64,000 nt of DNA, from the NCBI GenBank assembly GCA_963703315.1, contig OY969811.1:2720001-2784000 (forward strand), written 5' to 3'. Source of the DNA: an uncultured cyanobacterium (GTDB lineage Bacteria > Cyanobacteriota > Cyanobacteriia > Pseudanabaenales > Pseudanabaenaceae). Every line of letters starts with the position of its first letter. Within the stretch, counting starts at the first letter, position 1. The notes under the pieces are model-generated. The model was not told the origin of the DNA. It saw only the letters and a program-made list of their open reading frames with translations, and did no database searches. Shown piece by piece: positions 11,707-28,078 of this stretch. Position numbers and translations under genes: made by a program.

Positions 11707-11717
11707 GTATCGTTGAA

Positions 11718-11816
11718 GCGATCGCCTAAAAATCACTCACAGTAATAGCGATCGCCTTTAGAAGATAGATTGTTGATGCGATCGCCTAGAAATCACGACT
11801 CACAGTAATAGCGATC
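11718..11816 (+). repeat. HIP1-bracketed modular repeat A-B-A (copy 1)
   Basis: GCGATCGC-ctaaaaatcactcacagtaata-GCGATCGC-ctttagaagatagattgttgat-GCGATCGC-ctagaaatcacgactcacagtaata-GCGATC. Confidence 0.9.
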
Positions 11817-11871
11817 AAACAATCCGTATTATTTCACTTCGCAAAGCTTTACCTTAACAAACAAAAAAGTT

Positions 11872-12396
11872 ATGAATATTATCCCTCTATTCAATGATAT
11901 AGGTGAAGAAGGCGCTGAGTTTTACTGCCTAGCGTATGCTCCCGTTTGGTATCACCAGACCAAGAAGCCTGCACTTCCATCGGCGTTAGGAATTTACTTT
12001 TGCTCACATAAAGATTTCACGCAATTTAGTCAACACAGCTTCGCAGAGGATGGTCATCGCCTCTCGTATTCGCGAGGCGATGATAAGCGCGATACGCTAG
12101 AGTTTGTATTCTTGTCCGTACTCTTAGAAAGTTCCGTTCACCCTGCCATGTGGAGGTTGTTTCCTCGTGCGAAGATTCCGCACAGTTTTCAGTCAGATAA
12201 GTACGAGCAGGCACGTCGTCAGCTTTGCTGTTTATTGTTTCACTTCCGAAGTCAGGAGATGGTGGCACGACTTACATCTGATTTGCCTAAGCAGCCATTG
12301 ATGACTTGTGACGAGTCCGCCAGACGAGTAGCTTTCGGCGACTTCACAGAAGAGGATAAAGAACTTGAGCAAGCTATCATAGAGGAGAATAATTGA
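11872..12396 (+). CDS. Hypothetical protein (174 aa) between HIP1-bracketed repeats
   Basis: Long ORF with ATG and no internal HIP1; stop abuts the repeat at 12398. Confidence 0.6.
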   Translation: MNIIPLFNDIGEEGAEFYCLAYAPVWYHQTKKPALPSALGIYFCSHKDFTQFSQHSFAEDGHRLSYSRGDDKRDTLEFVFLSVLLESSVHPAMWRLFPRAKIPHSFQSDKYEQARRQLCCLLFHFRSQEMVARLTSDLPKQPLMTCDESARRVAFGDFTEEDKELEQAIIEENN

Positions 12397-12397
12397 T

Positions 12398-12480
12398 GCG
12401 ATCGCCTATAAATCACGGCTCACAGTAATAGCGATCGTCTTCACCAACCCTTTTAACAGATAGAGAATTGAGGCGATCGC
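12398..12480 (+). repeat. HIP1-bracketed repeat (unit A plus degenerate B)
   Basis: GCGATCGC-ctataaatcacggctcacagtaata-GCGATCG...agatagagaattgag-GCGATCGC. Confidence 0.85.
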
Positions 12481-12498
12481 TCAGAAAATTGATATTCG

Positions 12499-13216
12499 CT
12501 AATGAGGATCTTCTCTTGTTTGCAACTTCAACATTTCAGACTGAACATTCATCCCAATAACTAAAGCATCGCTCAGCAGAGAACTATACTGATTAGCTTG
12601 ATTTTGCACTTCTAAAGATTTTAAAGCTATCAAATTTTGCTCAATATTATTGAAAAGATCACGATGGCTACTTAAAAAACGACGATGCTCTCGGAGGATC
12701 TTTTCGGTTGTCAAGCCACAAATGAGGCTATCTCTAGTTAACTCAAGTGCCTGTAGGACATCCTCACGATGATTAAGATTTGCTGATTGATTACCGACAG
12801 ACTTTAAGCGATCGCACAGATCCATCGCTGCAATTACTTGATTATATTTATCGACCTCATCTAACAGATGGGACAAACCAGAACATATTTTTCGCTCTAA
12901 TCCAAGCAACAAGATTCCAACCTGCAAGCAGAATTAATACTAGCAGAAATACAAAAATGGCAAACCCAATCTGCTCTTGACGAGTATTTATGGATTTGCC
13001 AAGAGATTGAAATAGGAGAATGCTAATTGGCAAACTAAAAATCGCAATCAAAAATAAAGCGATCGCCTCACTCACCAAAAAAGGAACTAAGTATTTAGGA
13101 TTATTTAATAGAGAAATTCTATATACGCTGCCTATAAATAAATAGGTGATTTCCCTACCTGTGACCCTTGCTAGATCCTGTTCAGTAATCTGCAAATTCC
13201 TAATATCTGTTTGCAT
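12499..13216 (-). pseudogene. Frameshifted two-TM plus coiled-coil hypothetical protein
   Basis: ORFs 12857-13216 and 12499-12927 join if one base is removed near 12885 (AAT ATG T|TCT GGT TTG TCC CAT gives NMSGLSHLLDEVDKYN). Confidence 0.7.
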
Positions 13217-13237
13217 AATTGTTAGGCAATCTCAGAT

Positions 13238-13954
13238 TTATGTAAAAAACAAGCTTTTAATTGTATTCCATATTGCTAGATAAAAATTGCCTTCACGGGG
13301 ACGAAAAATATCAAATTTAGAACCAAAGGAACCGAAAAATGGTCTCAATGTCCAAGCCATCTGACTACCAACAAAAGCATAGAGTCCCAGCCAGAACTTG
13401 AGTATGGAGATACGAATTTTACGGTTTTTATCAATGGCTGTATCGTCAATAGCTAAGTCTTTATCTGCGATAATAGTTTCAGTTTTTGGTAGTAAAACCT
13501 GATAGAGAAAGTAAACTCCAATAACTCCTGTCAGAGTAAATATGGCAACATTTAACAAAAGGAAAAATGAATAATTGTCGGCTGTAATTAAGAAAAATAG
13601 AGTGACTGGTGCAAAACCAAATAGTAACGTACTAGTAATTGTTACTGCACAAAGCAAAATTGCCGCATACTGGCTAAGTGTAGTTTTTGAGCCGAAATAA
13701 ATATTAAAGAAATAGAGTGCTGGTAAACAAATCGCTAATGTGATTAGAAACAGGAATGGTAGCTTTGCGGCTGAAGAGACGATCTGCATCCAAGAGCTAA
13801 TCGCACCAATTAAACCACCATAAATTGCTAAAAATATAGAGCTACATATTAATAAGCCCACTATTTTGGTGTTAATTTTAACTCCATCATAAATTTCTTT
13901 GATGAACTGATCGCGATCGCTAAGTAAGGCAAGAAGAACCGAGAAAAATGGCAT
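13238..13954 (-). CDS. Multi-pass membrane protein (family often mis-annotated as actin-binding WH2 in cyanobacteria)
   Basis: SAAKLPFLFLITLAICLPALYFFN, FAPVTLFF, YAFVGSQMAWTLRPFFG. Confidence 0.75.
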   Translation of the reverse strand: MPFFSVLLALLSDRDQFIKEIYDGVKINTKIVGLLICSSIFLAIYGGLIGAISSWMQIVSSAAKLPFLFLITLAICLPALYFFNIYFGSKTTLSQYAAILLCAVTITSTLLFGFAPVTLFFLITADNYSFFLLLNVAIFTLTGVIGVYFLYQVLLPKTETIIADKDLAIDDTAIDKNRKIRISILKFWLGLYAFVGSQMAWTLRPFFGSFGSKFDIFRPREGNFYLAIWNTIKSLFFT

Positions 13955-14354
13955 ATGGATTTTAGATAAATTTCAAGATGGGAATGCTGGTAACTCACCT
14001 TACGCGGAACGTTTTAACCTCATAGCATTTCCTAATTAGGGTTTAGGGATTTGCCACTTTCTGGGTTTTATTCCCCCTCTCCTGCAAGGAGAGGATTTAG
14101 GGGAGAGGCTTACAAGGTTATCTGCGTAACATCGGGTAGTAATTTAGTGCAAAAACAGTTTACCTATGGAGTTTTGTAAAATTGTAATAGCAATTTACAT
14201 AATCTTTGCTCCACCGATTTAGACTAAGTAAATAGGCACTGTGTTCCTATATATTTTTTGTGGTGGAACTCATCTAAAGCTATTGACCACATTACAAGGC
14301 GATCGCTATTTGTTAAAAGTAAAGCTGCGATGCCCCCTCAACACCTAAAACATC

Positions 14355-14453
14355 ACGATCGCCTAAAAATCACTCACAGTAATAGCGATCGCCTTTAGAA
14401 GATAGATTGTTGATGCGATCGCCTAGAAATCACGAATCACAGTAATAGCGATC
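14355..14453 (+). repeat. HIP1-bracketed modular repeat A-B-A (copy 2)
   Basis: 14356-14456 matches 11719-11819 with one substitution (gact/gaat). Confidence 0.9.
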
Positions 14454-14649
14454 AAAATACATTTCTCTTCTGAGATTGTAGACCTTGTAGGGTTTGTTAA
14501 TGCAATGTAACGCACCCAAAATTTTATTTTTACACTTATTTAGCTGCTTTATATGACAGTTTATGGAATATTTATCTTTATACAAGTATTTATCCTAATA
14601 ATCTGCAAGATAATACATAGTTAGCAGTTCTCTATTAGAAATCAGAAGG

Positions 14650-15153
14650 ATGGATATGTCTAAAAAATGGAAGGGTCGGGAACAGCCAAATCTTGATCAT
14701 TTGATGTCACTTTTCTCGGATGACACCATTTCTGCATTCATTACTGGGCATCTAGTTATTGAATCTCTTCTTGTACAAATGATCGATCTAAAACTAGAAC
14801 ATCCTGATGAATTTGATACATTTAGTCTTAACTTCCCAGCAAAAACTAATCTGTGTAAGGCATTAGGATTAATTGATTCTGATATGACAAACTTTCTTCT
14901 TGAGATGAACACAATCAGAAATCGTTTTGCTCACAGGCTTGGATACAGCTTTTCCTTTGATGATGCGTTTAGCTTTGCTCAAGCTGCTGCCAAAGGGGGG
15001 ATAGACTTTTCAGATGATTCCATATACATGGATAAGGAGAATTCTGAAGAATGGTATGGCATCAAAGGAATTATTCAGGAAGTTTTTCAAAATACTGCTC
15101 AAGACCTCTCATTCATCATGGAGGAAAATGGTGGTGAATTTCAGTTTGGGTGA
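14650..15153 (+). CDS. Integron-cassette gene, MtlR/HEPN-like protein
   Basis: GHLVIESLL N-terminal helix and RNRFAH (Rx4H) motif; flanked by GTTAGCAGTT (14620-14629) and its reverse complement AACTGCTAAC (15168-15177). Confidence 0.65.
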   Translation: MDMSKKWKGREQPNLDHLMSLFSDDTISAFITGHLVIESLLVQMIDLKLEHPDEFDTFSLNFPAKTNLCKALGLIDSDMTNFLLEMNTIRNRFAHRLGYSFSFDDAFSFAQAAAKGGIDFSDDSIYMDKENSEEWYGIKGIIQEVFQNTAQDLSFIMEENGGEFQFG

Positions 15154-15170
15154 TCGAAATACTACTCAAC

Positions 15171-15246
15171 TGCTAACAATGGTGGTGCAGAAGATTGTTG
15201 GCAAAGTTGTAAAGTTTTTGGCAACCGCTGACCACAAACGTTCAGC
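15171..15246 (+). other. Integron attC recombination site (76 bp)
   Basis: R'' TGCTAAC, 5 nt, L'' TGGT(G)CAG ... L' CTGACCA, 5 nt, R' GTTCAGC; extrahelical G; inner gttggcaaa/tttggcaac stem. Confidence 0.8.
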
Positions 15247-15288
15247 TTCAGCGCACAGCTTTAACGCAAATTAAGTAAACTTTGACGT

Positions 15289-16059
15289 ATGAAACCTCAT
15301 GTATCTTTACTCGACAGAATTGAAATATTAAAGACGCAAAATCCAATTCAGGGAGCTTCGTATTACTGCGTCACATTGCTTGGCACTAAAGAGGGGAAAA
15401 TAAACCGATACTGCCAATCCGAGGTGTGCGGATACACTGATACAAAACCCCGCAGAGAAATTCGAGCAGGATGCTTGGTTGAGCCAACTAAGATGCGTGA
15501 TTTGTTTCAAGTGATTAAAGAACCGTCAGTTCTCGTGAATACATACAGTGACTTGTACGTATTTCTTCTGATTGGCGGTCATGGGATAATTGAGAAAAGT
15601 CTAGGTGAAAAGTACTTCGGTGATTTGTTGGCTGCGGAGGCGACAGTATTCTCCCATACAAAAGGACTTTTGCGGGTTCGTAGTTCGCCAAAAGCAATAA
15701 TTCAACACGCGCCAAGCAAGAAAACCCGAATGATAATCTTGAAACGTGATAATTATCGCTGTAAGGTATGTGGACGTTCACCAGAAAACCACGTTGATAT
15801 TGAATTGCACGTACATCATATACATCCTTGGGGAGAAGGCGGAGTAACTGAAGAAGATAACCTTATTACCCTTTGTAATACCTGTCATGACGGGCTTGAT
15901 CCCCATTTTGAGACAGACTTATTCCCTCTCATTGGTATCCAGCCTTATGTGAATATTATAAAAGCAGACCCTAACTACGTCGTTGGTGTTGTGAATTACC
16001 GTAAAGTATCCGTGAAAGCATATAAAACACTCGCCGAAAAAATGCCGCCACGCTCGTAA
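15289..16059 (+). CDS. HNH endonuclease with N-terminal extension (cassette gene)
   Basis: ILKRDNYRCKVCG...LHVHHIHPW...GG...NLITLCNTCH. Confidence 0.85.
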   Translation: MKPHVSLLDRIEILKTQNPIQGASYYCVTLLGTKEGKINRYCQSEVCGYTDTKPRREIRAGCLVEPTKMRDLFQVIKEPSVLVNTYSDLYVFLLIGGHGIIEKSLGEKYFGDLLAAEATVFSHTKGLLRVRSSPKAIIQHAPSKKTRMIILKRDNYRCKVCGRSPENHVDIELHVHHIHPWGEGGVTEEDNLITLCNTCHDGLDPHFETDLFPLIGIQPYVNIIKADPNYVVGVVNYRKVSVKAYKTLAEKMPPRS

Positions 16060-16192
16060 ACAGTTCGATCGCCGATCTTGTAGTTAATGAAGTGCAACGC
16101 ACCTTATTTTTGTTCGTATTGACACTGACTTGAACACAGTTACAATTTTTTAGCTAGACTACTGAGTAATAACTTTCAATCTAGGCGCAGCC

Positions 16193-16405
16193 ATGCTAGA
16201 CACATCAACACTTGAGCAACGCTTGATAACCCTTGAACAAGTAGTTTTCGATCTTCAAAATAAATTTGAAAGTAAGCCTAGCTCCGACAATTGGCTTGAT
16301 AGACTCATAGGTTCCATCTCTGATGACTCAGCTTTTCTTGAAGCTCTAGAATATGGACGTGCATTTCGGCTGTCTGATAAACCTATTGACGACACTGACA
16401 AATAA
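16193..16405 (+). CDS. Putative antitoxin (70 aa)
   Basis: LEQRLITLEQ...W...GS...FLEALEYGR pattern; directly upstream of a PIN toxin remnant. Confidence 0.6.
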   Translation: MLDTSTLEQRLITLEQVVFDLQNKFESKPSSDNWLDRLIGSISDDSAFLEALEYGRAFRLSDKPIDDTDK

Positions 16406-16407
16406 TC

Positions 16408-16560
16408 GTGAAATAGATGCGAAGTCAAAAAGTTCGTGTGTCTACAATGGACTTGAGAATTGCCGCGATCGCCATTTCTAACAACTTGGTATTACTTACC
16501 CGAAATACTGGAGACTTCAGTAAAGTTCCGAGTTTAGTAACCGAAGATTGGACAGTGTAG
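16408..16560 (+). pseudogene. VapC/PIN toxin with large internal deletion
   Basis: GTG AAA TAG is followed by RSQKVRVSTMDLRIAAIAISNNLVLLTRNTGDFSKVPSLVTEDWTV, the C-terminal third of a PIN domain. Confidence 0.8.
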
Positions 16561-16666
16561 CGCTGAAGGGCTTCCTTACAGTTAGCAAATAGATAGATCA
16601 TTGAGGCGATCGTAAGATATCTCAAAGCTATAATGTGAGGTAGCAAAAGATCTTCAGGTTAGGGGT

Positions 16667-17017
16667 ATGACTACAGTATCAATCTTGCCAATATCTAGTG
16701 TTAGCGGTGAAAAATCCTATCGGGCGATCGCAGGAGATAAGCAGTGGGTTGGTAAAACTGCGGGGCAAGCTCTAGATGGATTAACTGCTCAGTTAGGTGA
16801 AGCTGATTTCAGTGCGCTGATCGTTATCAACAGTTTTCATCCAGATCTATTTTTTAGCGCCGATCAACAAAAACGGTTATCGGAGTTAATGAATTTATGG
16901 CGAGTAGCACGCGATCGGGGAGAAACATTACTACTGGAACAACAAGCAGAGCTAGATAATTTAGTTGATGCTGAACTAAGGGCAGCAACTGCACGAACAA
17001 CCGCCTTAATGCAGTAA
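16667..17017 (+). CDS. Hypothetical protein, likely partner of the downstream HNH gene
   Basis: 116 aa ORF, GKTAGQALD...QQKRLSELM...ELDNLVDAEL; 8 nt before the HNH start. Confidence 0.65.
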   Translation: MTTVSILPISSVSGEKSYRAIAGDKQWVGKTAGQALDGLTAQLGEADFSALIVINSFHPDLFFSADQQKRLSELMNLWRVARDRGETLLLEQQAELDNLVDAELRAATARTTALMQ

Positions 17018-17025
17018 CTAAGTAT

Positions 17026-17241
17026 ATGAATCCCTATTACAGTGCGATCGCAGAACGTGCTAATCATCGTTGTGAATACTGCCATGCCCCAGAATTGGTT
17101 TTTAACTTCCCTTTTGAGGTTGAACATATCATCCCTCTCTCCCAGCAAGGGACAAATGACGAGTCGAATCTAGCTCTTGCCTGTCGATCCTGCAATCTTC
17201 GTAAAGGCACTCGTATTAGCGGCATTGATGCGATCGCCTAA
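17026..17241 (+). pseudogene. HNH endonuclease truncated at a HIP1-bracketed repeat
   Basis: RANHRCEYC...EVEHIIP...NLALACRSCNLRKG, then GID-AIA-stop supplied by the repeat at 17230; this family usually continues well beyond GID (recalled). Confidence 0.7.
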
Positions 17242-17298
17242 AACTCATGCCTTACAGTAATAGCGATCGCCTTGAGGAGATAGATTGTTAATGCGATT
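17230..17298 (+). repeat. HIP1-bracketed repeat A-B
   Basis: GCGATCGC-ctaaaactcatgccttacagtaata-GCGATCGC-cttgaggagatagattgttaat-GCGAT. Confidence 0.85.
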
Positions 17299-17350
17299 AC
17301 CAAAGTAATTAAGCCATAATTGCATTACAAACCTAATTTATCTGGCTCGA

Positions 17351-17881
17351 ATGTATATGAAAAATGAGAAGATCAAAGCAATACAAAATATCTTTAGTTC
17401 TAGACTCGACACGTTGAGCCATCTCTTAACAGTAGCAGAGAGCCATTTCGGAACCGATGTAGAGCCTATATTGCAGCGCCGTATAGCTCCCGATATGTTT
17501 CCCTTCGGTACACAAATTGTATTTACTTGCAATCAGCCCCGCAACTTTGCCTTGTGGTGCTTAGGACAGGCGGCGAATAACTTACCTCCCGACGTAGCAT
17601 CCCTAGATGAGGCGCGTACTCATATTTCATCTACAAAGGAACTGTTAGCAAGTATCAATGTTAGCGATACTATGCTTGCAGAGATCAAGCGGATTGAACT
17701 TGGAGAAGGTCTATACCTCGAACTATCTGGACTCTCATACGTGGATGATTTTCTGATGCCAAACTTTTACTTCCATTTGACCACAGCCTACGACATCCTG
17801 CGTATGGAAGGAGTACCCATAGGTAAGCACGATTTCATGATGCATTTGATACCTTTTGTAAAGCATCAAGGTAATTCATAA
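17351..17881 (+). CDS. DUF1993 family protein
   Basis: RIAPDMFPFGTQI, PNFYFHLTTAYDILRMEGVPIGKHDF. Confidence 0.9.
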   Translation: MYMKNEKIKAIQNIFSSRLDTLSHLLTVAESHFGTDVEPILQRRIAPDMFPFGTQIVFTCNQPRNFALWCLGQAANNLPPDVASLDEARTHISSTKELLASINVSDTMLAEIKRIELGEGLYLELSGLSYVDDFLMPNFYFHLTTAYDILRMEGVPIGKHDFMMHLIPFVKHQGNS

Positions 17882-17894
17882 CATGGAGTAAAAA

Positions 17895-18377
17895 ATGTCA
17901 TTATCTGAACCAATTAGCATTCAGCAGCTTTTCGCCAATGACTTGGCACTTATGGAAGAATTATTAACTGTCTTTGGTGAAGCTTTTGAAGAAGTTGATA
18001 CCTATAGCTCATCTCGTCCAAATGGTGCTTATCTCCAGCGTTTACTAGGTCGCGATTATTTCATTGCACTTGCAGCGTTAAAAAATGGATCGGTGGTTGG
18101 AGGTCTAGCCGCATACGAACTCCAGAAGTTTGAGCAAGAACGGAGTGAAATTTATATTTATGATCTAGCTGTTGCCGCCGCACATCGACGGCAAGGCATT
18201 GCCACGGCATTAATTCAAGAATTAAAGAAGATTGCTGTAGCGCGAGGAGCTTACGTTGTTTTTGTGCAGGCTGACATTGGAGATGACCCTGCGATCGCAC
18301 TTTATACAAAGCTTGGTGTGCGTGAAGATGTGCTTCATTTTGACATTGCTGTTGACGATAATAGCGATCGCCTTTAG
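17895..18377 (+). CDS. AAC(3)-I family aminoglycoside N-acetyltransferase (GNAT)
   Basis: [27 protein letters not shown]...HRRQGIAT...[28 protein letters not shown] closely follows AAC(3)-I; the last codons and stop come from the HIP1 repeat. Confidence 0.9.
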
Positions 18378-18401
18378 GAGATAGATTGTTGAGGCGATCG
18401 C
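18364..18401 (+). repeat. HIP1-bracketed unit B
   Basis: GCGATCGC-ctttaggagatagattgttgag-GCGATCGC. Confidence 0.85.
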
Positions 18402-18513
18402 GCTTGAATTAAAGTAGAATTTGCGGCAAATTTTTCCTCAATCAAATAATTAAACTGCAAGTGCTTTACAACTCCAAGCAATGTGTCTCTACGACCATTA
18501 AAATTCGCCTGTT

Positions 18514-18957
18514 TCAAATCTTCTGCTCACCTCGTTCAAGTTTGTTTTTCTGCAATTGATTTGGTTGTCTAGACCGATTTTTGCCAGCAATACGGAGAAG
18601 ACGAAGAAATTTTGGACATTCAAAATGGTTTGGCGCTTTGCAAACTGCCGCGTGACGAAGCCCATCACGCATTGAGGTCAGTTCCTTTATTTTCTTATCC
18701 AACTCCTCTGCTTTAGCTGAAAGCAGTGCAACATTAATTTCAACACCTTCAGGGGTAAACATTTCCGCGATCTCATCCAGAGAGAAACCAGCATTTCGTC
18801 CCAAAGCAATTAAAGCCAGCCGATCTATAACATCATCACTGAATTGACGACGTAGACCACTTCGACCATTGGACTGAATCAGCCCCTTCTCTTCGTAAAA
18901 GCGTAGCGTTGAGGCAGGCAACCCTGATGCCTTTGCAACTTCAGATATATCCATCAT
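18514..18957 (-). CDS. MerR family transcriptional regulator
   Basis: MDISEVAKASGLPASTLRFYEEKGLI HTH; C-terminal HAAVCKAPNHFECPKF. Confidence 0.9.
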   Translation of the reverse strand: MMDISEVAKASGLPASTLRFYEEKGLIQSNGRSGLRRQFSDDVIDRLALIALGRNAGFSLDEIAEMFTPEGVEINVALLSAKAEELDKKIKELTSMRDGLRHAAVCKAPNHFECPKFLRLLRIAGKNRSRQPNQLQKNKLERGEQKI

Positions 18958-18976
18958 GTCACTTTGCAATTAACAC

Positions 18977-19007
18977 TTGACTTCAAGTTAACTTGAACTT
19001 GTATTGT
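18977..19007 (+). promoter_or_regulatory. MerR-type promoter/operator of the TSUP gene
   Basis: -35 TTGACT, 19-nt spacer, -10 TATTGT; perfect dyad TTCAAGTTAACTTGAA at 18982-18997. Confidence 0.85.
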
Positions 19008-19039
19008 AGCCTCATACAAGATTTTATGAGCTAAAAACT

Positions 19040-19849
19040 ATGCTAAATATTGAATGGATATTGTTATACATCGCGTTGGGCGGCTTTGTTGGTTTTATGG
19101 GAGGCTTGCTCGGTGTTGGTGGTGGTGGAATCTTAGTTCCTCTCCTAGCATCAATTCTTGTTTACCAAGGTATCGGTGGAGATGAAGTAGTCCATTTGTC
19201 CTTGGGAACATCATTGATGTGCATGATCATTTCTTCCATCGCAAGTACTCGCGCACATTCATCTCGAAAAGCTGTAGTGTGGAAAGTCGTTGGCGGAATG
19301 GCTCCTGGAATTATTCTCGGCGCTCTCCTAACTACCCAAGTTGCGGCAACCCTCAAATCAGCTTACATTGCGCTTTTTATGGCACTTTTCATGGTGCTTG
19401 TAGCAGTGCAAATGTTTGTTAATTGGAAACCGAAACCTAGCTTGAAGCCAATTACATTTCGCGGATTACTGACAGTTGGAGTTGCGATCGGCTCGGTATC
19501 AGCACTAGCCGCAGTGGGCGGCGGTTTTCTCACAGTTACCTACTTGAGCTATAAGAATATCGTCATGAAAAGAGCAGTTGGCACTTCAGCCGCAATTGGA
19601 CTTCCGATCGCTATTTCAGGAACGATTGGTTACATGATTAGCGGCTGGTCTAAGACATTGAGCGCTCCCTATACTATTGGATTCATTTACTTACCAGCAT
19701 TTTTGGCAATATCGATTGCCAGTTCTATTGCTGCTCCTTATGGCGCTCGCTGCTCACATCGTTTACCTGAGGCTTATTTAAAAAAGATATTTGCAGTTAT
19801 CTCACTCATCTTAAGCTTAACGATGCTACGCTCATTTGTTAAATTTTGA
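19040..19849 (+). CDS. TSUP (TauE/SafE) family transporter
   Basis: GFMGGLLGVGGGGILVP, GTSL, AVGTSAAIG; about 8 TM helices. Confidence 0.88.
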   Translation: MLNIEWILLYIALGGFVGFMGGLLGVGGGGILVPLLASILVYQGIGGDEVVHLSLGTSLMCMIISSIASTRAHSSRKAVVWKVVGGMAPGIILGALLTTQVAATLKSAYIALFMALFMVLVAVQMFVNWKPKPSLKPITFRGLLTVGVAIGSVSALAAVGGGFLTVTYLSYKNIVMKRAVGTSAAIGLPIAISGTIGYMISGWSKTLSAPYTIGFIYLPAFLAISIASSIAAPYGARCSHRLPEAYLKKIFAVISLILSLTMLRSFVKF

Positions 19850-19863
19850 ACTAGAAGTATCGC

Positions 19864-20589: not shown

Positions 20590-20630
20590 GCGATCGCCTA
20601 ATAATCACGACTCACAGTAATAGCGATCGC
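20590..20630 (+). repeat. HIP1-bracketed unit A
   Basis: GCGATCGC-ctaataatcacgactcacagtaata-GCGATCGC. Confidence 0.88.
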
Positions 20631-20722
20631 TTTATATTTGCTAAATGATGATTGAATGAAATATGAATAACCTAACCCCGCAGTCTTCTTTAACTCGATT
20701 AAATTTTTGTTAGCCTTTATCT

Positions 20723-21181
20723 ATGGAAACAACTCCTAAAAACATCAACCTCGAACCAGAACTAGCCCTAGCTCTTGATTTAGACTTGGTGCGTCAACAG
20801 CTAGCAACTCGCGCCCAAAATCTGGCGATTCCCCAAATCGAAAAACATTTATTTCTATGTGCTGACCAAACCAAACCCCTCTGCTGCCAAAAGGAAGTGG
20901 GATTGCAAGCATGGGACTATCTAAAACGACGCATCAAGGAACTCAACTTAGAAGCAAAAATCTTTCGGACTAAGACTAACTGCTTGCGTGTATGCGATCG
21001 CGGACCGATTTTATTAGTCTATCCAGATGGTGTTTGGTATCATTCGGCAACCACAGAGATTTTAGAAAGGATACTCCAAGAGCATATTATTGGTGGCAAC
21101 ATCGTTATAGATTACGCCTTTGTCTCACCCCAAAAGGGTTCCTCGACTTCGGCGGGAAACCCATCCTGTAAAACGCAATAA
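20723..21181 (+). CDS. Thioredoxin-like [2Fe-2S] ferredoxin
   Basis: [14 protein letters not shown]...[25 protein letters not shown]. Confidence 0.88.
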
Positions 21182-21296
21182 GATACAGCGCTTTGCGCTA
21201 AATTAAAATACAAAGAAATTTTTGAAAGCGCGGCAGAGCCGCGCTTTCAAAAATTTCTTTGGACTACTTCAAGCCTCAACAGCCTGTAGCTATATC

Positions 21297-22652
21297 TTAT
21301 TGCGAGAGTGAAACTTTGCGAGAGTCGAATAACTGAAGTACGGCACTTTTAATCATTGACATCACATGGGGATCACAGCTTGCAATTAGCTCTTCGCGGG
21401 GCAGGTTGCCTTTAAAAAACTCTTTGGAAAGTCTGAGCATTCTTTGCATTTCAGGAAATCCAAGAGATTTCACCATAAAGGTTGCCACAGGAGAATTCCG
21501 CACATCGTAGCTAGAATCAACGCTTCGTCCCTTATCTAATAATTCTAATACTTCCGCTTCGATAGGCGTTGACGGCTGGTGTGGCACTTCAATTTGTGGC
21601 AAGAACTGTTCTAAGCCATCTACGGGATTATCTGATGGTAATTCCCCCATCATTGTTGAGAGTGAAATATCACGTCCAATGCGTAATGATAGTGCTTCTA
21701 GAATGGCGATCGAGGTTAACTTTGTACCTAAGTACAGTCTTGACACTTCCAGATTGTGATTAGTTTGGGCAAGTAGCTTGTAATAGTTTTTTTGATCAGG
21801 TTCATCACGATAACGTCGGAAAACGATTTCAGGCGAAAGGAAGTTCATAAAGCTTTCCATTTTTTGCATGGAAACTCGATAACCATGCACACTATAGGAA
21901 TTAGAATTTTTAAGATCGTGATTTGTTTCAGGAATTAAATTCCAAGTATTGTTGAGAAAAAGCGATGAATTTGGACTAGCAAAGTTTTTTACATCGCGGT
22001 TAGATAGGCGGACGGCTCTCTTGACGATTTCAGCAATATCTTGATCACCCCAGCCAAATTGAAATACTTCATTGGCATTAACTAAACGACCAAATAGGAG
22101 ATCAGAACAAGTTAGACCAGAATCTAGCTGCGGACGAAATGGAATAGTCGCTTCAATACAAGCTGTAATCTCGGCAAGCTTGTTGAGAGGCAACATATTT
22201 TCTAGGACTTTGATCGCAATGATGGCACTCAGAAATTCATTTTGCCCAGACATCGGTAATAAGGGCTGTCCATGCTCAAAGCCAAATAGCATCGATACCA
22301 TTTTGAAAATGATATCTTCTTGCAGTTCAGGGGCTTCGAGAATTACCAGTTGCTCACGGTCTTCTTTGATGTAGGGAGAAATGTAGCGACTGATATTGAC
22401 ACTAATACCTTGATCAACCTGTACATACACCAGATCATGAAATATTGCTGATATGACTTCGATCGCGTCTCCCCCTTCACCCACCTCAAAAATATGGTTG
22501 GGTGTGTGAAACGATCGCCAAGGACCAGTCATCGTTTGAATGATCAAATTGGAGATTTTAGTCAACTGTTCTTGGTCAACATGACCTTGCAAGTCGGCGA
22601 TCGCTTGCGTGAGGCGGTCTAGACATTTCTGTTTATCCGTTGCAGTACTCAT
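21297..22652 (-). CDS. Conserved hypothetical protein with HD-like N-terminus
   Basis: RSFHTPNH...AIFHDLVY motif; 451 aa from MSTATDK. Confidence 0.7.
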   Translation of the reverse strand: MSTATDKQKCLDRLTQAIADLQGHVDQEQLTKISNLIIQTMTGPWRSFHTPNHIFEVGEGGDAIEVISAIFHDLVYVQVDQGISVNISRYISPYIKEDREQLVILEAPELQEDIIFKMVSMLFGFEHGQPLLPMSGQNEFLSAIIAIKVLENMLPLNKLAEITACIEATIPFRPQLDSGLTCSDLLFGRLVNANEVFQFGWGDQDIAEIVKRAVRLSNRDVKNFASPNSSLFLNNTWNLIPETNHDLKNSNSYSVHGYRVSMQKMESFMNFLSPEIVFRRYRDEPDQKNYYKLLAQTNHNLEVSRLYLGTKLTSIAILEALSLRIGRDISLSTMMGELPSDNPVDGLEQFLPQIEVPHQPSTPIEAEVLELLDKGRSVDSSYDVRNSPVATFMVKSLGFPEMQRMLRLSKEFFKGNLPREELIASCDPHVMSMIKSAVLQLFDSRKVSLSQ

Positions 22653-22719
22653 CCAATCATCTCCACATTTAACTTCTTCGTATTTACAGCAGCGTTTCTC
22701 CACTCATTTCAACCACAAC

Positions 22720-22814
22720 TATAGCGTTTCACAGCTTAGTGAAGTACGGGATTGTTTCCCCGCCTTCGGCGGGGAAACAATCCTCTGTATCTCGCTTGCT
22801 TGAAAAGCGCTATA
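22720..22814. repeat. TATAGC-ended palindromic element
   Basis: tatagcgttt...ggattgtttccccgcc-ttc-ggcggggaaacaatcc...aaagcgctata. Confidence 0.8.
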
Positions 22815-23014
22815 TGCTAGTAATGATCTAGATAAATTGTGGTAATTGTTTAATGGCTTGACATTATTTGGGTGATTTTTATTAAATCGTAAAGTTTTAA
22901 AGACTCTGTATTGCATGAAACTTAAACTGACCTGTGTGTTTAACTAATGAGATTTGCTGTTTTAGCTCGGATGGGGATCTGATCAGGATAGTTAGCTCTT
23001 TACACTGCACATTC

Positions 23015-23491
23015 TTACATATTAATGGGATTCTCTGAAGATGCCAGAAAGTCTAATATGATCTGACGATGGCTGGGGGCAAGTGGACGATCCTGTAATA
23101 TGCGACGGGAATAGTGACTACCTTGGATAATCTCTTGCGGTGAAAGCAAATCCATGTCGCATCCTTCATTGAGTTCGAGCATATTTAGCCCTACATCTAA
23201 ACAACCATAAAATACATATCTAATTACTTGATCTCCTAAATAGCTGCGAAAAAATCTAATTTCTTGAGGAATATACCCGATTTCTTCTTGAAGTTCTCGG
23301 AGCATACCCATCTCAGGTTTTTCATTTATTTCTAGATGTCCGCCAAACATTGTCCAAACCCCCGGATGTACGATAGTTGGGATGTCATCACGCAGTTGCA
23401 TCAAAAATTGGTTTTGATGCTGCAAAATGGCGATCGCTACTGATCGGATAGTCTCTTCAGCGTTAACCACATCTAGCTCGTTATCCATCAT
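23015..23491 (-). CDS. NUDIX hydrolase
   Basis: LMQLRDD...FGGHLE...RELQEEIG Nudix box. Confidence 0.9.
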   Translation of the reverse strand: MMDNELDVVNAEETIRSVAIAILQHQNQFLMQLRDDIPTIVHPGVWTMFGGHLEINEKPEMGMLRELQEEIGYIPQEIRFFRSYLGDQVIRYVFYGCLDVGLNMLELNEGCDMDLLSPQEIIQGSHYSRRILQDRPLAPSHRQIILDFLASSENPINM

Positions 23492-23590
23492 TAATTAAGT
23501 TGGAGATTATGTAAATCGTAAGTTTGGCTTGAAATATATTAGTACTTACGCAAAGTAAAAAGGCTCAATATAGCAATACTTGGTTAAGTT

Positions 23591-23641
23591 AGCCCAAAAG
23601 ATTAATAGCGGCGCGAAGCGCCGCTATTAATCTTTTGGGCT
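23591..23641. repeat. Palindromic repeat (GCGGCGC core family)
   Basis: agcccaaaagattaatagcggcgc-gaa-gcgccgctattaatcttttgggct. Confidence 0.85.
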
Positions 23642-23769
23642 TTATGGAGGCATTTGCGCCGCAAATCTCCAGATGTCATTAATGTTGAGTTTGCGATTAG
23701 CTTTATACAAACTTAGAGTGCGATCGCTGTTACCATCAGTGATAATTTCTGGAAAGGAGTAAGCATTCG

Positions 23770-24732
23770 ATGTCCGCAGTCAATCAGCAAGAAGTTTTGG
23801 CAAGCTTTAAGGTTTTGGTAAGCATGGCAAAAGCCGACGGCAAATTGCTCGAAGAAGAGTTTGCCAGTCTCGCCGATACTTTTGAAGAAATTCATCTGCC
23901 TGAAGGTATGACCGTCGATAGCCTGTTGAATGAAGATGAGCAACCAATCGACACATTACTTTCACAAATTACCAGTGATATCGCACAGGAGATGGTTTAT
24001 CAGTCTGCCTACGCGATGGCAAATATCGATGGAGAGTGTAGTTCCGAAGAAAAAGAACTGTTAGACAAAATTGGGACAACTTTTACCAGTTCAAAACTTT
24101 GGGGCAAACAAGAATGGCTAGAAACCCTAGAGCGCCGTTCTACAAAATCAGCGATCGCTGCACAAATCAGTCAAATTGATGATCCTGAGAAACGGGCGAT
24201 GGAGGTCGAAAATGCGATCACCGATGCTTGTTTTCTTAATGCAGTTTTAGGCGCATTCCCGATCCCCGGAATTGCGATCGCCTTTGATATGTTGATCTAC
24301 TGGAATCAACTCGATCTCGCCCAAACCATTGGTCAAAGCTGGGGCTACGATCGCGACAATGAAAATCTTCGCAAAGCCTTATTTGGAAGCTTAGGGATCA
24401 CAGGAACCCGCATTGCTGTTAGCAATTTAGCCAAGCTCGTTCCTGTCTTTGGCATGGTAGTCGGCGCGACTACTGCTTATGCAAGTACATGGGCGCTAGG
24501 CAAAGTTGCTAATGAATACTTTGCCTCAGGTGGCGAGATGGATGCTTTTAGCTTACGTCAAGCCTTTAAGCAAGCGAAGAAAGAGGGTGAAGCCTTGTAT
24601 AAAACCAAAGCTGATGAAATTGCTGAGAAGAAAAAAGCGATCGAGCCTCAAGTGCAACTGCTCAATGAGGAACTGAAAGCTGGCAGTATTACGCCTGAAG
24701 AATATCAGGAAAAATTGAAAAATCTACTTTAA
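23770..24732 (+). CDS. TerB-like plus DUF697/YcjF-like domain protein
   Basis: MAKADGKLLEEE and AMANIDGECSSEEKELL (TerB-like), then LGAFPIPG...KLVPVFGMVVGATTAYASTWALGKVA. Confidence 0.75.
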   Translation: MSAVNQQEVLASFKVLVSMAKADGKLLEEEFASLADTFEEIHLPEGMTVDSLLNEDEQPIDTLLSQITSDIAQEMVYQSAYAMANIDGECSSEEKELLDKIGTTFTSSKLWGKQEWLETLERRSTKSAIAAQISQIDDPEKRAMEVENAITDACFLNAVLGAFPIPGIAIAFDMLIYWNQLDLAQTIGQSWGYDRDNENLRKALFGSLGITGTRIAVSNLAKLVPVFGMVVGATTAYASTWALGKVANEYFASGGEMDAFSLRQAFKQAKKEGEALYKTKADEIAEKKKAIEPQVQLLNEELKAGSITPEEYQEKLKNLL

Positions 24733-24767
24733 AAAAGAGAGGACGCATAGCGTCCTCTCTTTTTTTT
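24732..24767. terminator. Bidirectional terminator
   Basis: aaaaagagaggacgc-ata-gcgtcctctcttttttt between convergent genes. Confidence 0.8.
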
Positions 24768-25209
24768 AGAAACCACCAACCCGAATACCTGCGCCTAAAA
24801 CTACGAATAAGACAGCTAGACTGGTCACTCCCACAATGTGATAAGCCAAAGAGTTTAAAGTCTCTTTAGTGAGATTAGGAATAATGAAAAATCGCGCATG
24901 AATTGCTAAGGCGATCGTTCCTAATAGGAGTAATAGTTTGATGCCGATATAAGTGGAGAGATAGGAATCAAATGCTAGAAAACTCTCGAAATTAGGAAAA
25001 TAAGTCCATGTGAGCCATAGCCCTGTGATCACCTGTAATAGCAGGGCTGCGAGTCCAAATCCTTCAAAATGTTCTTCAAATTGATGAATGCGATCAGGAT
25101 CGCGATGTTTGAGAGCTTGAGGTAAAACGGTTGCTGCTAGTACCAGATGCCCACCTGTCCAGACAGTGGCTCCTAAAATATGCAAAACAACTAAGATTTT
25201 AAATAACAT
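24766..25209 (-). CDS. CopD-like membrane protein
   Basis: LHILGATVWTGGHLVLA, QVITGLWL, KLLLL...ALAIHARF. Confidence 0.75.
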   Translation of the reverse strand: MLFKILVVLHILGATVWTGGHLVLAATVLPQALKHRDPDRIHQFEEHFEGFGLAALLLQVITGLWLTWTYFPNFESFLAFDSYLSTYIGIKLLLLLGTIALAIHARFFIIPNLTKETLNSLAYHIVGVTSLAVLFVVLGAGIRVGGF

Positions 25210-25368
25210 GGGGTTATGTCAAGATTTGTTGACTTATGGTTATAGAATTGGCGATCACTTTAAGATTTGGTAAAAATAGATACAAAAATAATTGCATTTT
25301 TATAAGTCTACTTTGGATTTTGACAAAGGGCGATTGATTTCACCAACTTGCATCAAGAGGCGAAAGCT

Positions 25369-25614
25369 ATGAATACAGCGATTGATTGGGATGAAGTATT
25401 TGAATATCCACCCAGAACCATCGTAGAACTCAAAGCAAAGCCAGATGTTTTATACGAGATTGATTGGTATGAGGCGATGATGGTTCCACCGATCTGGTTA
25501 GTGGGCGATCCGCGTCCTCGCTATCCCCACGAATTGCGAATCGTGTCGCGCCTAAAATTACAACTTTGTGATTTAACATTTTGTGATTTAGCGGCGCAAC
25601 CTGCCTTGGTTTAG
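25369..25614 (+). CDS. Conserved cyanobacterial hypothetical protein
   Basis: MNTAIDWDEVFEY...YEAMMVPPIWLVGDPRPRYPHEL. Confidence 0.65.
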   Translation: MNTAIDWDEVFEYPPRTIVELKAKPDVLYEIDWYEAMMVPPIWLVGDPRPRYPHELRIVSRLKLQLCDLTFCDLAAQPALV

Positions 25615-25628
25615 GTTTCAGAAATATA

Positions 25629-25669
25629 GCGATCGCCTAAAAATCAAGACTCAAAGTAATAGCGATCGC
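25629..25669 (+). repeat. HIP1-bracketed unit A
   Basis: GCGATCGC-ctaaaaatcaagactcaaagtaata-GCGATCGC. Confidence 0.85.
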
Positions 25670-25760
25670 CAAAGTCGCACCACCGCTAATATCTCCTACC
25701 TTCCCAAAGTTGAAGTAGGGTCTTGGATATAGAATGTATTTAGTGCTACAGCCTATAGCT

Positions 25761-26018
25761 ATGACTATTAAAGAACAAATTATTCAAGAACTTGATCGCA
25801 TCCCTGAGTCTTATCTGGAGAAAGTGCTTAGTTTTTTGTATTGTTTAGAAACTCCATCGACTCATGATGTTGAGCAGTTAAGCAAGGCGGAAGCAATTAT
25901 CCAAAATGGATTAAATACTGCGCTATCCAAGCCAAAGCGATCGTCATTGGAAATCTGGGCAGAATTTGCATCTATTCGCAATAGAATTTCTGAAAGTATT
26001 GTTGATATGATCGCCTAG
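25761..26018 (+). CDS. Antitoxin-like (DUF2281-type) protein ending inside a repeat
   Basis: MTIKEQIIQELDRIPESYLEKVLSFL; last codons IVDMIA-stop are encoded by the repeat. Confidence 0.55.
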   Translation: MTIKEQIIQELDRIPESYLEKVLSFLYCLETPSTHDVEQLSKAEAIIQNGLNTALSKPKRSSLEIWAEFASIRNRISESIVDMIA

Positions 26019-26077
26019 AAATTACGACTCAAAGTACAAGCGATCGCCTTTAAGAAATAGATTGTTGATGCGATCGT
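25998..26077 (+). repeat. HIP1-bracketed repeat (B tail)-A-B
   Basis: attgttgat-atGATCGC-ctagaaattacgactcaaagtacaa-GCGATCGC-ctttaagaaatagattgttgat-GCGATCG. Confidence 0.85.
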
Positions 26078-26197
26078 GGGTTGTTGATGTTTGAGTTGGA
26101 GGCGATCAATTTTTGATAAGTTGTTTCAGGCGATCTCTATCAAGCCTATTATTGACAAGTGCGTTACTATTATATTAATTGCTCTAGGTAATTGATT

Positions 26198-26674
26198 ATG
26201 AAATGGGAAGAAGTTTGTGAGAATAAACAGCTACAAGATTTACCATTCAAAATTGAATTAAACAAGTGGGGGCAAATCGTAATGAGTCCAGTCAAAATCA
26301 AGCATTCTTTTCACCAAGGAAGACTCCAGCGTTTATTGGAGTCTTTGTTGAGTAATGGGGAAGTGATGCCAGAATGTGCGATCGACACAACAGACGGTGT
26401 TAAAGTTGCTGATGTTGTCTGGTGTTCTGCGGAAAGATTTGACAAAATTCAGGATGAAGTTTCAGCATCTATTGCCCCAGAAATTTGTATAGAAGTTAAA
26501 TCTATTGGGAATACTTTGGGTGAAATGGAATTCAAGAAAAAGTTGTATTTTGAAGCCCAAGCGCTTGAGGTATGGCTATGTGATGAAAAAGGTAAAATAA
26601 GATTTTATAATGAGCAAGGGGAATTAGAGCAATCTTTGTTAGTCCCTGATTTCCCGAAGCAAATTAAACGATAA
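26198..26674 (+). CDS. Uma2 family endonuclease
   Basis: KIELNKWGQIVMSP...H, VADVVW, APEICIEVKS, YFEAQALEVW. Confidence 0.9.
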   Translation: MKWEEVCENKQLQDLPFKIELNKWGQIVMSPVKIKHSFHQGRLQRLLESLLSNGEVMPECAIDTTDGVKVADVVWCSAERFDKIQDEVSASIAPEICIEVKSIGNTLGEMEFKKKLYFEAQALEVWLCDEKGKIRFYNEQGELEQSLLVPDFPKQIKR

Positions 26675-26723
26675 ATTATATTGCTTGTGTTTTAGTTGAT
26701 CGCCTATTCTCTCAAACAAAACA

Positions 26724-26795
26724 GCGATCGCCTTGAGAAGATTGATTGTTAATGCGATCGCCTAAAAATCATAACTCACAGTATATAGCGATCGC
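26724..26795 (+). repeat. HIP1-bracketed repeat B-A
   Basis: GCGATCGC-cttgagaagattgattgttaat-GCGATCGC-ctaaaaatcataactcacagtatata-GCGATCGC. Confidence 0.85.
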
Positions 26796-26934
26796 ATTGT
26801 CTATATGGAAGATGGTAAATTGATGCCAAATGTTGAAGCTTGTCATTAGAGCGATTGCGATAGCCTACATTAAACTCTTTAGAAAATGAATTGTTGAGGC
26901 GATCGCGAAGTCAAGAAGTTGATAGGCGATCAGG

Positions 26935-27018
26935 GTATAACAAATCATTGAAGCAAGCCAACAGCTATGATTTAGGCAAACTAAAAATGTCTACTCCTGT
27001 TCAATTTAGCCGTTAAGC
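26935..27018 (+). other. Integron attC site (84 bp) upstream of the LysE cassette
   Basis: R'' GTATAAC, 5 nt, L'' ATTGAA(G)C ... L' GTTCAAT, 6 nt, R' GTTAAGC. Confidence 0.7.
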
Positions 27019-27031
27019 TTTAGGAATACAT

Positions 27032-27649
27032 ATGAGCTTTTTCGATGCATCAGCACTGTTTGTAATCATGGTAACGCTCGCCATGATTCCTAGTACGAGT
27101 GTTGCCTTGGTGATTACACGCTCAGCCACATTAGGCTTTTCAAATGGGGCTGCCGTCTCAATGGGCATTGTACTAGGGGATTTGATTTTCGTATCGTCGG
27201 CAATTTTTGGACTAACGGCTCTGTCGGAACTGATGGGAACCTTCTTTTTAGTAATTAGATACGCTGCTGGCGTTTACCTTATTTGGTTTGGTGTAACCTT
27301 GATCAGAAGTAGAGCGAAAGCGTACTCTCTTCAATCCTATAGCGCTCGGGGCGGAATCGTTGCTAGTTTTTTTGCGGGTCTTTTTGTAACACTTGGTGAT
27401 GTTAAGGCTATATTTTTCTATGCGAGTTTATTTCCAGCATTTGTAGAATTATCGGCACTCAAAACACTAGACATTTTTGTGATTCTATTTGTAACTACAA
27501 TCACAGTTGGTGGTGTCAAGTTGACCTACGCCTTGATCGCCAAGAAAGTGGTGATTATGAGCAAAGGACTAGCAATTGAAAAAGAAGCTAAGTTGGCATC
27601 AGGTGCTCTTATGGTTGGCACTGGAACTTATCTCATTGCAAAAGTTTAA
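27032..27649 (+). CDS. LysE family translocator (integron cassette gene)
   Basis: PSTSVALVITRS...G...GIVLGD, YAAGVYLIWFG, GLFVTLGDVKAIFFY; stop TAA lies in AAAGTTTAAC, the near-complement of the cassette start GTTAAGCTTT. Confidence 0.88.
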   Translation: MSFFDASALFVIMVTLAMIPSTSVALVITRSATLGFSNGAAVSMGIVLGDLIFVSSAIFGLTALSELMGTFFLVIRYAAGVYLIWFGVTLIRSRAKAYSLQSYSARGGIVASFFAGLFVTLGDVKAIFFYASLFPAFVELSALKTLDIFVILFVTTITVGGVKLTYALIAKKVVIMSKGLAIEKEAKLASGALMVGTGTYLIAKV

Positions 27650-27821
27650 CAAAGCATTGTAACGGACAAGCCTCTGAATGCGTCATTATACTGAAACTAT
27701 ACGACCGTTAAGGGTGTCTGTTTCTAGTCGAGATTAGGTAAGCAAAAATGGTTGGCTTTGTTGTTGAGTACAGAGTAGTTATCTGCGATCACCAAGCATA
27801 AGTAATTGATAAGTGATCGCA

Positions 27822-27909
27822 GCATAACAAAACATTGGAGCGGATAGAAGCGTGATATTTTGGTGTTGAGTTGAAGGCGATCTATTGTCGCTCAATTCAG
27901 CCGTTATGC
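27822..27909 (+). other. Integron attC site (88 bp)
   Basis: R'' GCATAAC, 5 nt, L'' ATTG(G)AGC ... L' GCTCAAT, 6 nt, R' GTTATGC; R boxes perfectly complementary (AGCATAAC/GTTATGCT). Confidence 0.8.
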
Positions 27910-28027
27910 TCAATCGCGAAGTCCGTAAGTGAATGGTTTCTAGCCAAGATTGAGCAAGCAAATATCACCGACTTCGATGTTCAGTTCCGAGAAGTTATCG
28001 GCGATCGCAAAAACAAATAATTATTTA

Positions 28028-28068
28028 ACGATCGCCTAGAAATCATAACTCACAGTAATAGCGATCGC
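28028..28068 (+). repeat. HIP1-bracketed unit A (last copy)
   Basis: aCGATCGC-ctagaaatcataactcacagtaata-GCGATCGC. Confidence 0.85.
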
Positions 28069-28078
28069 TTAATTCTAA

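What the first reader, a model, noticed from the sequence alone, without database searches (positions are those of the whole stretch)
11718..28068. Array of accessory genes punctuated by co-oriented HIP1-bracketed modular repeats: candidate HIP1-based gene capture/shuffling system
Seen: about 10 repeat blocks (11718, 12398, 14355, 17230, 18364, 20590, 25629, 25998, 26724, 28028). Each is built from two units, A = CTA(A/G)AAATCAC(GA)CTCACAGTAATA and B = CTT(T/G)AG(A/G)AGATAGATTGTT(G/A)A(T/G), always delimited by GCGATCGC and chained as A, B, AB, BA or ABA. All are on the same strand, all lie between small accessory genes, and I saw none outside 11.7-28.1 kb. The intervening cargo is cassette-like (HEPN-like, HNH, TA parts, DUF1993, AAC(3)-I, MerR/TSUP, Uma2, LysE), and several of these genes lack HIP1, unlike the host genes. 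Established: HIP1 is over-represented in cyanobacteria with unclear function, and small dispersed repeats that sit only inside HIP1 (SDR5 type) are known from Nostoc. Inference: these units act as standard joints through which foreign DNA is added, swapped or deleted by recombination at HIP1, an integron-like platform with no dedicated integrase seen in this window.
Basis: partly seen in the sequence, partly recalled or inferred. Interest (0 to 1): 0.85.

Follow-up and report, generated by a model that had tools for sequence, protein, structure and literature searches.

The report
Palindrome-jointed gene cassette arrays in cyanobacteria
Short repeats built around a common cyanobacterial DNA palindrome mark the joints where accessory genes are added, removed and reordered in these bacteria, like an integron but with no integrase of its own, which gives this long-unexplained palindrome a testable role.

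Summary
Real, and wider than the window. Ten blocks plus one partial block are made of two units (A, B) between HIP1 octamers, all in one direction. The units occur across the genus, in arrays that keep one polarity (31 of 32 regions) and alternate strictly (A-B 63, B-A 58, A-A 2, B-B 0). Identical block-bounded cargo appears with other neighbours, or in swapped order, in other genomes. At the copD-ric site four relatives have one plain HIP1, while this genome holds a 2.4-kb array and another genome holds different cargo. Cargo includes toxin-antitoxin modules, stress genes and integron pieces (orphan attI, attC, gene-less cassettes) cut at HIP1. No linked recombinase was found; this genome lacks IntI. 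Most likely mechanism (inferred, 0.55): host recombination at HIP1-rich micro-homology joints, fed by DNA uptake. Corrections: half of the right-hand HIP1 borders are imperfect, a 5-kb stretch of genus-wide genes lies inside, and copies occur elsewhere in the genome. The scan noted this kind of joint before, in this genome (e1-5267858) and another (e1-5290353). Not an integron; not shown to be SDR5.

The parts
11718..11818 (+). Block ABA (first A is the 3-bp shorter variant)
   Evidence: 99% identical over 101 nt to 14356-14456
12398..12480 (+). Block A followed by a degenerate long-B unit and a further HIP1
14355..14455 (+). Block ABA
14530..14626 (+). Orphan attI-like site without intI; presumed crossover at 14620/14621; only copy found in this genome
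   Evidence: aligned with intI-upstream regions of relatives; what follows the site differs among 30 loci; one match in G000
14650..16059 (+). Two genes behind attI: 167 aa (weak DUF4145) and 256 aa HNH; attC-like hairpin between them at about 15174-15253 seen by eye only
   Evidence: the hairpin was not found by the attC model
16193..17241 (+). Small ORF modules ending in a 71-aa HNH ORF whose stop codon lies inside the next block
   Evidence: 16582-17228 recurs at 98% next to a block in G063
17230..17299 (+). Block AB
17351..18377 (+). DUF1993 gene and AAC(3)-I acetyltransferase gene; the latter ends inside block B
   Evidence: AAC(3)-I recurs in three other arrays with other neighbours
18364..18401 (+). 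Block B
18514..20505 (.). MerR + TauE module and HsdR_N-like module; the latter travels separately, its border being a degenerate HIP1 near 19859
20590..20630 (+). Block A
20631..25628 (.). Genus-wide genes (ferredoxin-like, 468 aa, NUDIX, TerB/EcsC-like, CopD-like); not typical cargo
   Evidence: matches in 46 of 47 relatives, as two separate groups
25629..28068 (+). Complete insert at the copD-ric HIP1 site, bounded by A at both ends
   Evidence: single HIP1 at this place in G009, G013, G020, G044; other cargo in G002
25629..25669 (+). Block A (left border of the insert)
26007..26077 (+). Block AB, holding the stop codon of the 94-aa ORF
26192..26674 (+). Uma2-family gene flanked by HIP1 units of another dialect
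26724..26795 (+). Block BA
26877..26906 (+). Partial B joined to the integron-derived piece
   Evidence: E 4e-4
26899..28035 (+). Integron-derived piece from HIP1 to HIP1: end of a gene-less cassette, attC (26935-27018), LysE gene (27032-27649), gene-less cassette, attC (27822-27909), gene-less cassette cut at its second HIP1
28028..28068 (+). Block A (right border)

Best explanation
A and B are non-coding spacer units that, chained between HIP1 sites with a 63-bp A+B period, form standard polar joints of gene-cassette arrays across this cyanobacterial genus (Pseudanabaena, judged from named plasmid matches). SHOWN by comparison: cargo is gained, lost and reordered at these joints, and an array can occupy what is one plain HIP1 in relatives. 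INFERRED: (1) an array is seeded by a rare micro-homology crossover centred on a chromosomal HIP1; (2) once A/B is in place, the host's general recombination machinery, stimulated by HIP1, pairs A with A and B with B on DNA taken up from kin or carried on plasmids, so cargo flanked by blocks is inserted, deleted or swapped and the (AB)n chains grow and shrink, always in one direction; (3) new genes enter as HIP1-cut pieces of other accessory DNA, including true integrons of the genus, whose gene-less cassettes carry HIP1 sites, and TA arrays that use other unit dialects.
For: Polarity: 31 of 32 regions uniform, 159 of 161 adjacent blocks agree; 141 A, 89 B, 26 long-B all in one direction; A-B 63, B-A 58, A-A 2, B-B 0. 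Shared cargo: 6 of 49 spacer matches run from block to block in both arrays, with other neighbours; two cassettes are in swapped order in G020 and G023. Empty and filled sites; an insert of 2.6 kb in G019 stands where G020 has one ABA block, with AB on both sides. Second orthologous switch right after A. Gene-less cassettes end at their second HIP1 and go on into A or B in 9 of 46 aligned copies and in the window. 11 of 12 attC hits and 6 of 6 nearby attI sites share the blocks' polarity. B shares a 12-mer with the gene-less cassette (2 of 1000 shuffles). ComEC and C5 methylases are present. Units lie on plasmids. Passages of 10.1101/2024.09.10.611283 report that HIP1 in homology arms raises integration up to 7-fold, and over 100-fold when methylated.
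Against: No event was seen in progress; no excised circle in the contigs of the likely source sample (contigs drop rare forms). Homology of 30-130 bp at about 80% identity between copies is short for RecA-type exchange. Of 45 homology ends not at a block in both arrays only 9 lie within 10 nt of an exact HIP1 (background 4.4%), and 27 are not near even a two-mismatch site (rows not independent). One array (G063) has mixed polarity. The ric tree needs 3 changes for the filled state, but its well-supported branches do not exclude one origin, so repeated insertion is not proven. Regions were chosen around repeat hits. Competence and methylase specificity are not tested.
Confidence: 0.55

Rival explanations
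1. A dedicated, still unknown site-specific system (recombinase, or nuclease plus ligase) cuts at HIP1 and reads A/B as polarity or accessory sites, acting in trans.
For: Insert borders fall exactly at HIP1, with the octamer at both ends. The same 636-bp cassette is followed directly after HIP1 by long-B in two genomes and by A in a third. A and B are no more alike within than between genomes (0.81 vs 0.80). HIP1 spacing of 33 + 30 = 63 bp equals six helical turns (arithmetic). Passages of PMC4390886 cite site-specific recombination at HIP1 and precise SDR5 insertion.
Against: No recombinase among 120 of 341 array protein clusters scanned; own tyrosine-recombinase hits and the Y1 transposase lie far away, no resolvase; the units form no hairpin beyond HIP1 pairing. 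PMC13756078 reports that no HIP1-specific complex was found by EMSA.
Confidence: 0.22
2. A and B are selfish or passive small dispersed repeats (SDR5-like) that insert into HIP1 and pile up in accessory islands; the cargo moves by other means and the repeats only travel with it.
For: Solo units exist (C1:1990933, 2619860, 2923861). Many homology ends are not at HIP1. A stretch of genus-wide genes lies inside the window's array.
Against: Does not explain one polarity over up to 57 kb, block-to-block cargo in new order, or A at both ends of inserts at a site that is one HIP1 in relatives; no solo A was found at the copD-ric site in the 7 genomes with that flank.
Confidence: 0.15
3. The arrays are decayed integrons (CALIN) worked by IntI in trans, the blocks being relics of attC or of gene-less cassettes.
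For: attI, attC and gene-less cassettes lie in the arrays with the same polarity; IntI is over the cut-off in 23 of 48 genus genomes; B resembles the gene-less cassette.
Against: Blocks score nothing with the attC model; 12 attC hits in 43 sources that hold well over 150 blocks; no A/B unit in 15 intI neighbourhoods; array-rich G005, G008, G013, G023 have no IntI match; A has no likeness to gene-less cassettes.
Confidence: 0.08

Closest known systems
Integrons and CALIN arrays (Cury et al. 2016, PMC4889954; passages read)
   Same: Polar arrays of small accessory genes, often ending at the joint; cassette order differs between strains; attI, attC and integron-type cargo are present.
   Different: The joints are not attC hairpins; no intI in cis or in this genome; cargo is often several genes in either direction (161 with, 76 against); arrays sit at many loci and on plasmids.
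SDR5 of heterocystous cyanobacteria (Elhai et al. 2008; paper not held; known here only from passages in PMC5861425, PMC4390886, PMC13756078)
   Same: Short unit tied to HIP1; empty sites are one HIP1.
   Different: SDR5 is described as one 21-nt module limited to Nostocaceae; here two units of 25 and 22 nt alternate in polar chains that bound gene cargo. Sequence likeness to SDR5 was not tested.
pdif / dif modules of Acinetobacter (search listing only)
   Same: Host-encoded recombination acting on standard sites that bound TA and resistance modules, with module shuffling.
   Different: Those sites are XerC/XerD binding sites and the enzyme is known; no such enzyme is linked here.
HIP1-stimulated transformation and HIP1-bounded deletion (10.1101/2024.09.10.611283 passages; smtB deletion as told in PMC13756078)
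   Same: HIP1 as a hotspot of recombination and DNA uptake.
   Different: Those concern single HIP1 sites; neither describes natural arrays of cassettes with dedicated spacer units.
REP/BIME mosaics (recalled, no call)
   Same: Intergenic chains of alternating short units.
   Different: A and B are not hairpins; the one Y1 transposase of this genome is far from the arrays.

Membership tests
Integron | intI gene next to attI and the array | tested here: not met
   TIGR02249 best 32 bits against a cut-off of 265 in this genome; no A/B near 15 intI loci
Integron | attI site | tested here: met
   Orphan attI-like site at 14530-14626, inside one spacer
Integron / CALIN | Cassette joints are attC sites | tested here: not met
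   attC model finds two sites in the window, neither at a block
CALIN | At least two attC sites without nearby intI | tested here: met
   True only for the sub-piece 26935-27909; the array as a whole is not one
SDR5 | Unit sits in or at HIP1, empty allele is plain HIP1 | tested here: met
   For whole inserts at copD-ric; no solo-unit/empty pair was found
SDR5 | 21-nt SDR5 sequence | not testable with these tools
   Source paper not held; unit cores are 25 and 22 nt
pdif modules | XerC/XerD sites and linked Xer recombination | tested here: inconclusive
   No dif consensus was tested; tyrosine-recombinase hits in two distant genes only
REP/BIME with RAYT | Hairpin units beside an HUH transposase | tested here: not met
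   Fold shows mainly HIP1-HIP1 pairing; Y1_Tnp at C1:349 kb
CRISPR array or known RNA family | Rfam match, regular short unique spacers | tested here: not met
   0 Rfam matches in 11000-29000; spacers 278-18056 bp

The most novel reading that the evidence does not exclude
HIP1 is the crossover core of a phylum-wide, integrase-free gene-capture system: an unknown host protein joins DNA at methylated HIP1, and lineage- or locus-specific spacer dialects (A/B here, others at TA arrays) give polarity and addressing, so that cyanobacteria run several parallel cassette arrays that also absorb the output of true integrons.
Probability: 0.25. Interest if true: 0.92.

Novelty: new variant of a known kind. 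Interest (0 to 1): 0.72.

Why it matters
The function of HIP1 has been open for three decades (PMC13756078). These arrays give natural, base-precise empty and filled alleles and a defined 63-bp substrate, so the idea that HIP1 serves gene exchange can be tested directly. If the joints are active, bloom and biofilm cyanobacteria have a route, invisible to integron finders, to collect defence, stress and resistance-type genes, and the blocks might serve as short landing pads for strain engineering.

Tried and rejected
Coding role: stops in all six frames of the longest chain. Structured RNA or hairpin: no Rfam hit. Promoters: 25 sites against 42 expected, one overlapping a block. Phage origin: 0 exact matches of unit A in viral contigs. 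My first attC scan by simple rules gave mostly noise and was replaced by a covariance model from 22 attC sites of intI loci. The TetR-integrase fusion at C1:4367585-4368832 lies beside HIP1 units of another dialect but scores under the Pfam cut-off and seems to lack catalytic residues (by eye); not pursued. 221 of 341 protein clusters from the arrays were not scanned with Pfam. Reverse transcriptase and IS110 families were not searched. Runs X2, X3, X10 hold only short related pieces; their joints are not used as evidence. Elhai 2008 could not be read. Paper searches that found no description of such arrays; the library lacks most subscription papers.
Full report
OBSERVATION. The ten blocks are in the sequence as described, all on the + strand, with one start 9 bp off and two weaker units missed. 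Unit A has a 25-nt core and unit B a 22-nt core; with one HIP1 each they give periods of 33 and 30 bp. Profiles of the units find 14 A and 13 B hits in the 4.57-Mb genome, of which 11 and 7 lie in the window's 16.4 kb. Borders are often imperfect: 7 of 10 left and 5 of 10 right octamers are exact. Contigs of run X1, possibly the source sample, cross five blocks without a differing letter. The stretch 20631-25628 is not cassette-like; its genes match in 46 of 47 relatives.

DISTRIBUTION. The first block matches in 24 of 24 genomes of the genus (some weakly) and 0 of 16 from other families. A pattern for unit A is found in 18 of 20 genus genomes, 1 of 6 other genomes of the family and 7 of 274 genomes of other families; the reversed control finds none. 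Named matches are plasmids of Pseudanabaena and Planktothrix, hence the genus name used here. No exact match in viral contigs.

GRAMMAR. In 32 regions fetched from relatives around hits, 31 have one polarity; 189 of 193 blocks follow the majority and 159 of 161 neighbouring blocks agree. Among 328 intergenic HIP1-to-HIP1 intervals, 141 A, 89 B and 26 long-B units all point one way; A is followed by B 63 times, B by A 58 times, A by A twice, B by B never. Chains reach 11 units. ORFs inside arrays run with the blocks 161 times and against them 76 times; in the window three ORFs take their stop codon from a block and two end within 11 bp of one.

CARGO MOVES. Of 49 matches among 99 spacers, 6 run from block to block in both arrays, among them a 636-bp toxin-antitoxin-type cassette in three genomes with other neighbours and a 1.7-kb cassette at two places of one genome; two cassettes stand in opposite order in G020 and G023. 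Of 74 ends of the stronger matches, 29 are at a block in both arrays, 30 in one, 15 in neither; of the 45 not at a block in both, 9 lie within 10 nt of an exact HIP1 (4.4% for random intergenic places) and 27 are near no HIP1-like site (rows overlap). So the joints explain many but not all ends.

EMPTY AND FILLED SITES. Seven of 48 genomes have the flank left of 25629. G009, G013, G020 and G044 have one plain HIP1 followed by the ric flank; G042 lacks the octamer; this genome holds 2440 bp and G002 holds 1403 bp of different cargo, each with A at both ends and HIP1 as both borders. G007 has an array with yet other cargo before the same right flank. On a ric tree of 12 rows the filled state needs 3 changes and no bootstrap tree gives one, but the starred branches do not exclude one origin. 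Further indels: 3.0 kb in G013 against one near-HIP1 in G005; 2.6 kb in G019 against one ABA block in G020; 1.7 kb in G008 against one A in G024. At C1:1990933 the left flank is shared with G009 and G046, and the sequence changes right after A.

INTEGRON PIECES. IntI is over the cut-off in 23 of 48 genus genomes but absent here, and none of 15 intI neighbourhoods holds A or B. Yet 14530-14626 aligns with the region upstream of intI and is the only such copy in this genome; of 30 loci returned, 5 are beside intI, 6 (the window included) have A/B within 1.5 kb, all in the same direction, and the sequence after the presumed crossover differs from locus to locus. An attC model from 22 intI-linked sites gives 12 hits in 43 sources, all in array regions, 11 in the blocks' direction and one at the polarity switch of G063; two are in the window. 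The genus's integrons carry gene-less cassettes with two HIP1-like sites just before attC; in 9 of 46 aligned copies, and in the window, the cassette stops at the second site and runs on into A or B. The piece 26899-28035 begins and ends at such sites. B shares a 12-mer with one type of gene-less cassette (2 of 1000 shuffles), A shares nothing.

ENZYME. None linked. Tyrosine-recombinase hits lie in two distant genes, no resolvase, one distant Y1 transposase. Pfam on 120 of 341 protein clusters from the arrays and their flanks shows regulators, oxidoreductases, methyl- and acetyltransferases, transporters, TA parts and two DDE transposases, no recombinase. ComEC and three full C5 methylases are present, specificity unknown.

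MECHANISM. A palindromic octamer alone would allow A-A, B-B and inverted units; their near absence says that pairing extends into the spacers or that a protein reads them. I favour host recombination on short HIP1-rich homology (0.55): rare seeding at a chromosomal HIP1, then frequent exchange between blocks on incoming DNA. This rests on the comparisons above and on reported stimulation of integration by HIP1 in homology arms (10.1101/2024.09.10.611283, passages). A dedicated HIP1 system (0.22), passive repeats (0.15) and a decayed integron (0.08) remain. All steps of mechanism are inferred; only the pattern of gain, loss and reordering is shown.

KNOWN SYSTEMS AND NOVELTY. It works like an integron or a pdif-module array but fails the integron tests (no intI, joints not attC). 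SDR5 is the nearest repeat; I saw it only through passages of PMC5861425, PMC4390886 and the first sixth of PMC13756078. I also read passages of PMC4889954 and PMC5101192; pdif and gene-less cassette papers were seen as listings only. Searches showed no description of such arrays; subscription papers and the supplements of the preprint were out of reach. My reading was written down before the look-up. Earlier notes of this scan reach the same idea for the B-bounded cassette at 974-976 kb of this genome (e1-5267858; I confirmed the two B units and the genus-wide spread) and for another cyanobacterium (e1-5290353, not checked); these are not independent evidence.

VERDICT. Observation confirmed; interpretation supported in substance; enzyme unknown. 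New variant of a known kind (cassette arrays with standard joints). Interest 0.72; most novel reading 0.25 likely, 0.92 if true.

Noticed in passing
G000:C1 61.3-62.8k, 443.0-445.3k, 1370.2-1372.2k, 2189.7-2193.4k, 2252.6-2254.0k, 3670.9-3672.7k, 4510.1-4521.5k: Other arrays of small toxin-antitoxin-like gene pairs, each punctuated by co-oriented HIP1-bracketed units of its own dialect. At 443k, likeness to relatives mostly ends at the first HIP1 after the flanking gene, and G042 has one short chain and the same right flank without the three modules.
   Followed up: partly
L113, L117, L123, L126, L131: Orphan attI sites keep the start of intI and break off at a HIP1 (read by eye); 25 of 30 attI loci have no intI within 1.5 kb.
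   Followed up: partly
L073 (G045 integron): Many copies of a gene-less cassette of about 217 bp with two HIP1-like sites just before attC; function unknown.
   Followed up: partly
L101-L102 (G063): The one array with mixed polarity, as after an internal inversion; one switch lies beside an IS1-like end rather than at a block (by eye).
   Followed up: partly
G000:C1:976090-976180: The 3' end of an aac(3)-I gene joined to unit B, a leftover of the same cassette as window 17895-18401.
   Followed up: no
window 10424-11419: IS1-family transposase directly before a RelE cassette that lacks its 5' part.
   Followed up: no
window 14483-14520 and 16075-16105: REP-like palindromic remnants at both ends of the attI piece; the same type precedes attI in G002.
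   Followed up: no
L147 (G325), L148 (G280), L221: Unit A, also as small co-oriented arrays, in 7 of 274 genomes of other families and on Planktothrix plasmids.
   Followed up: partly
window 58656-58735: Tandem 16-bp repeat, about five copies, between two large signalling genes.
   Followed up: no
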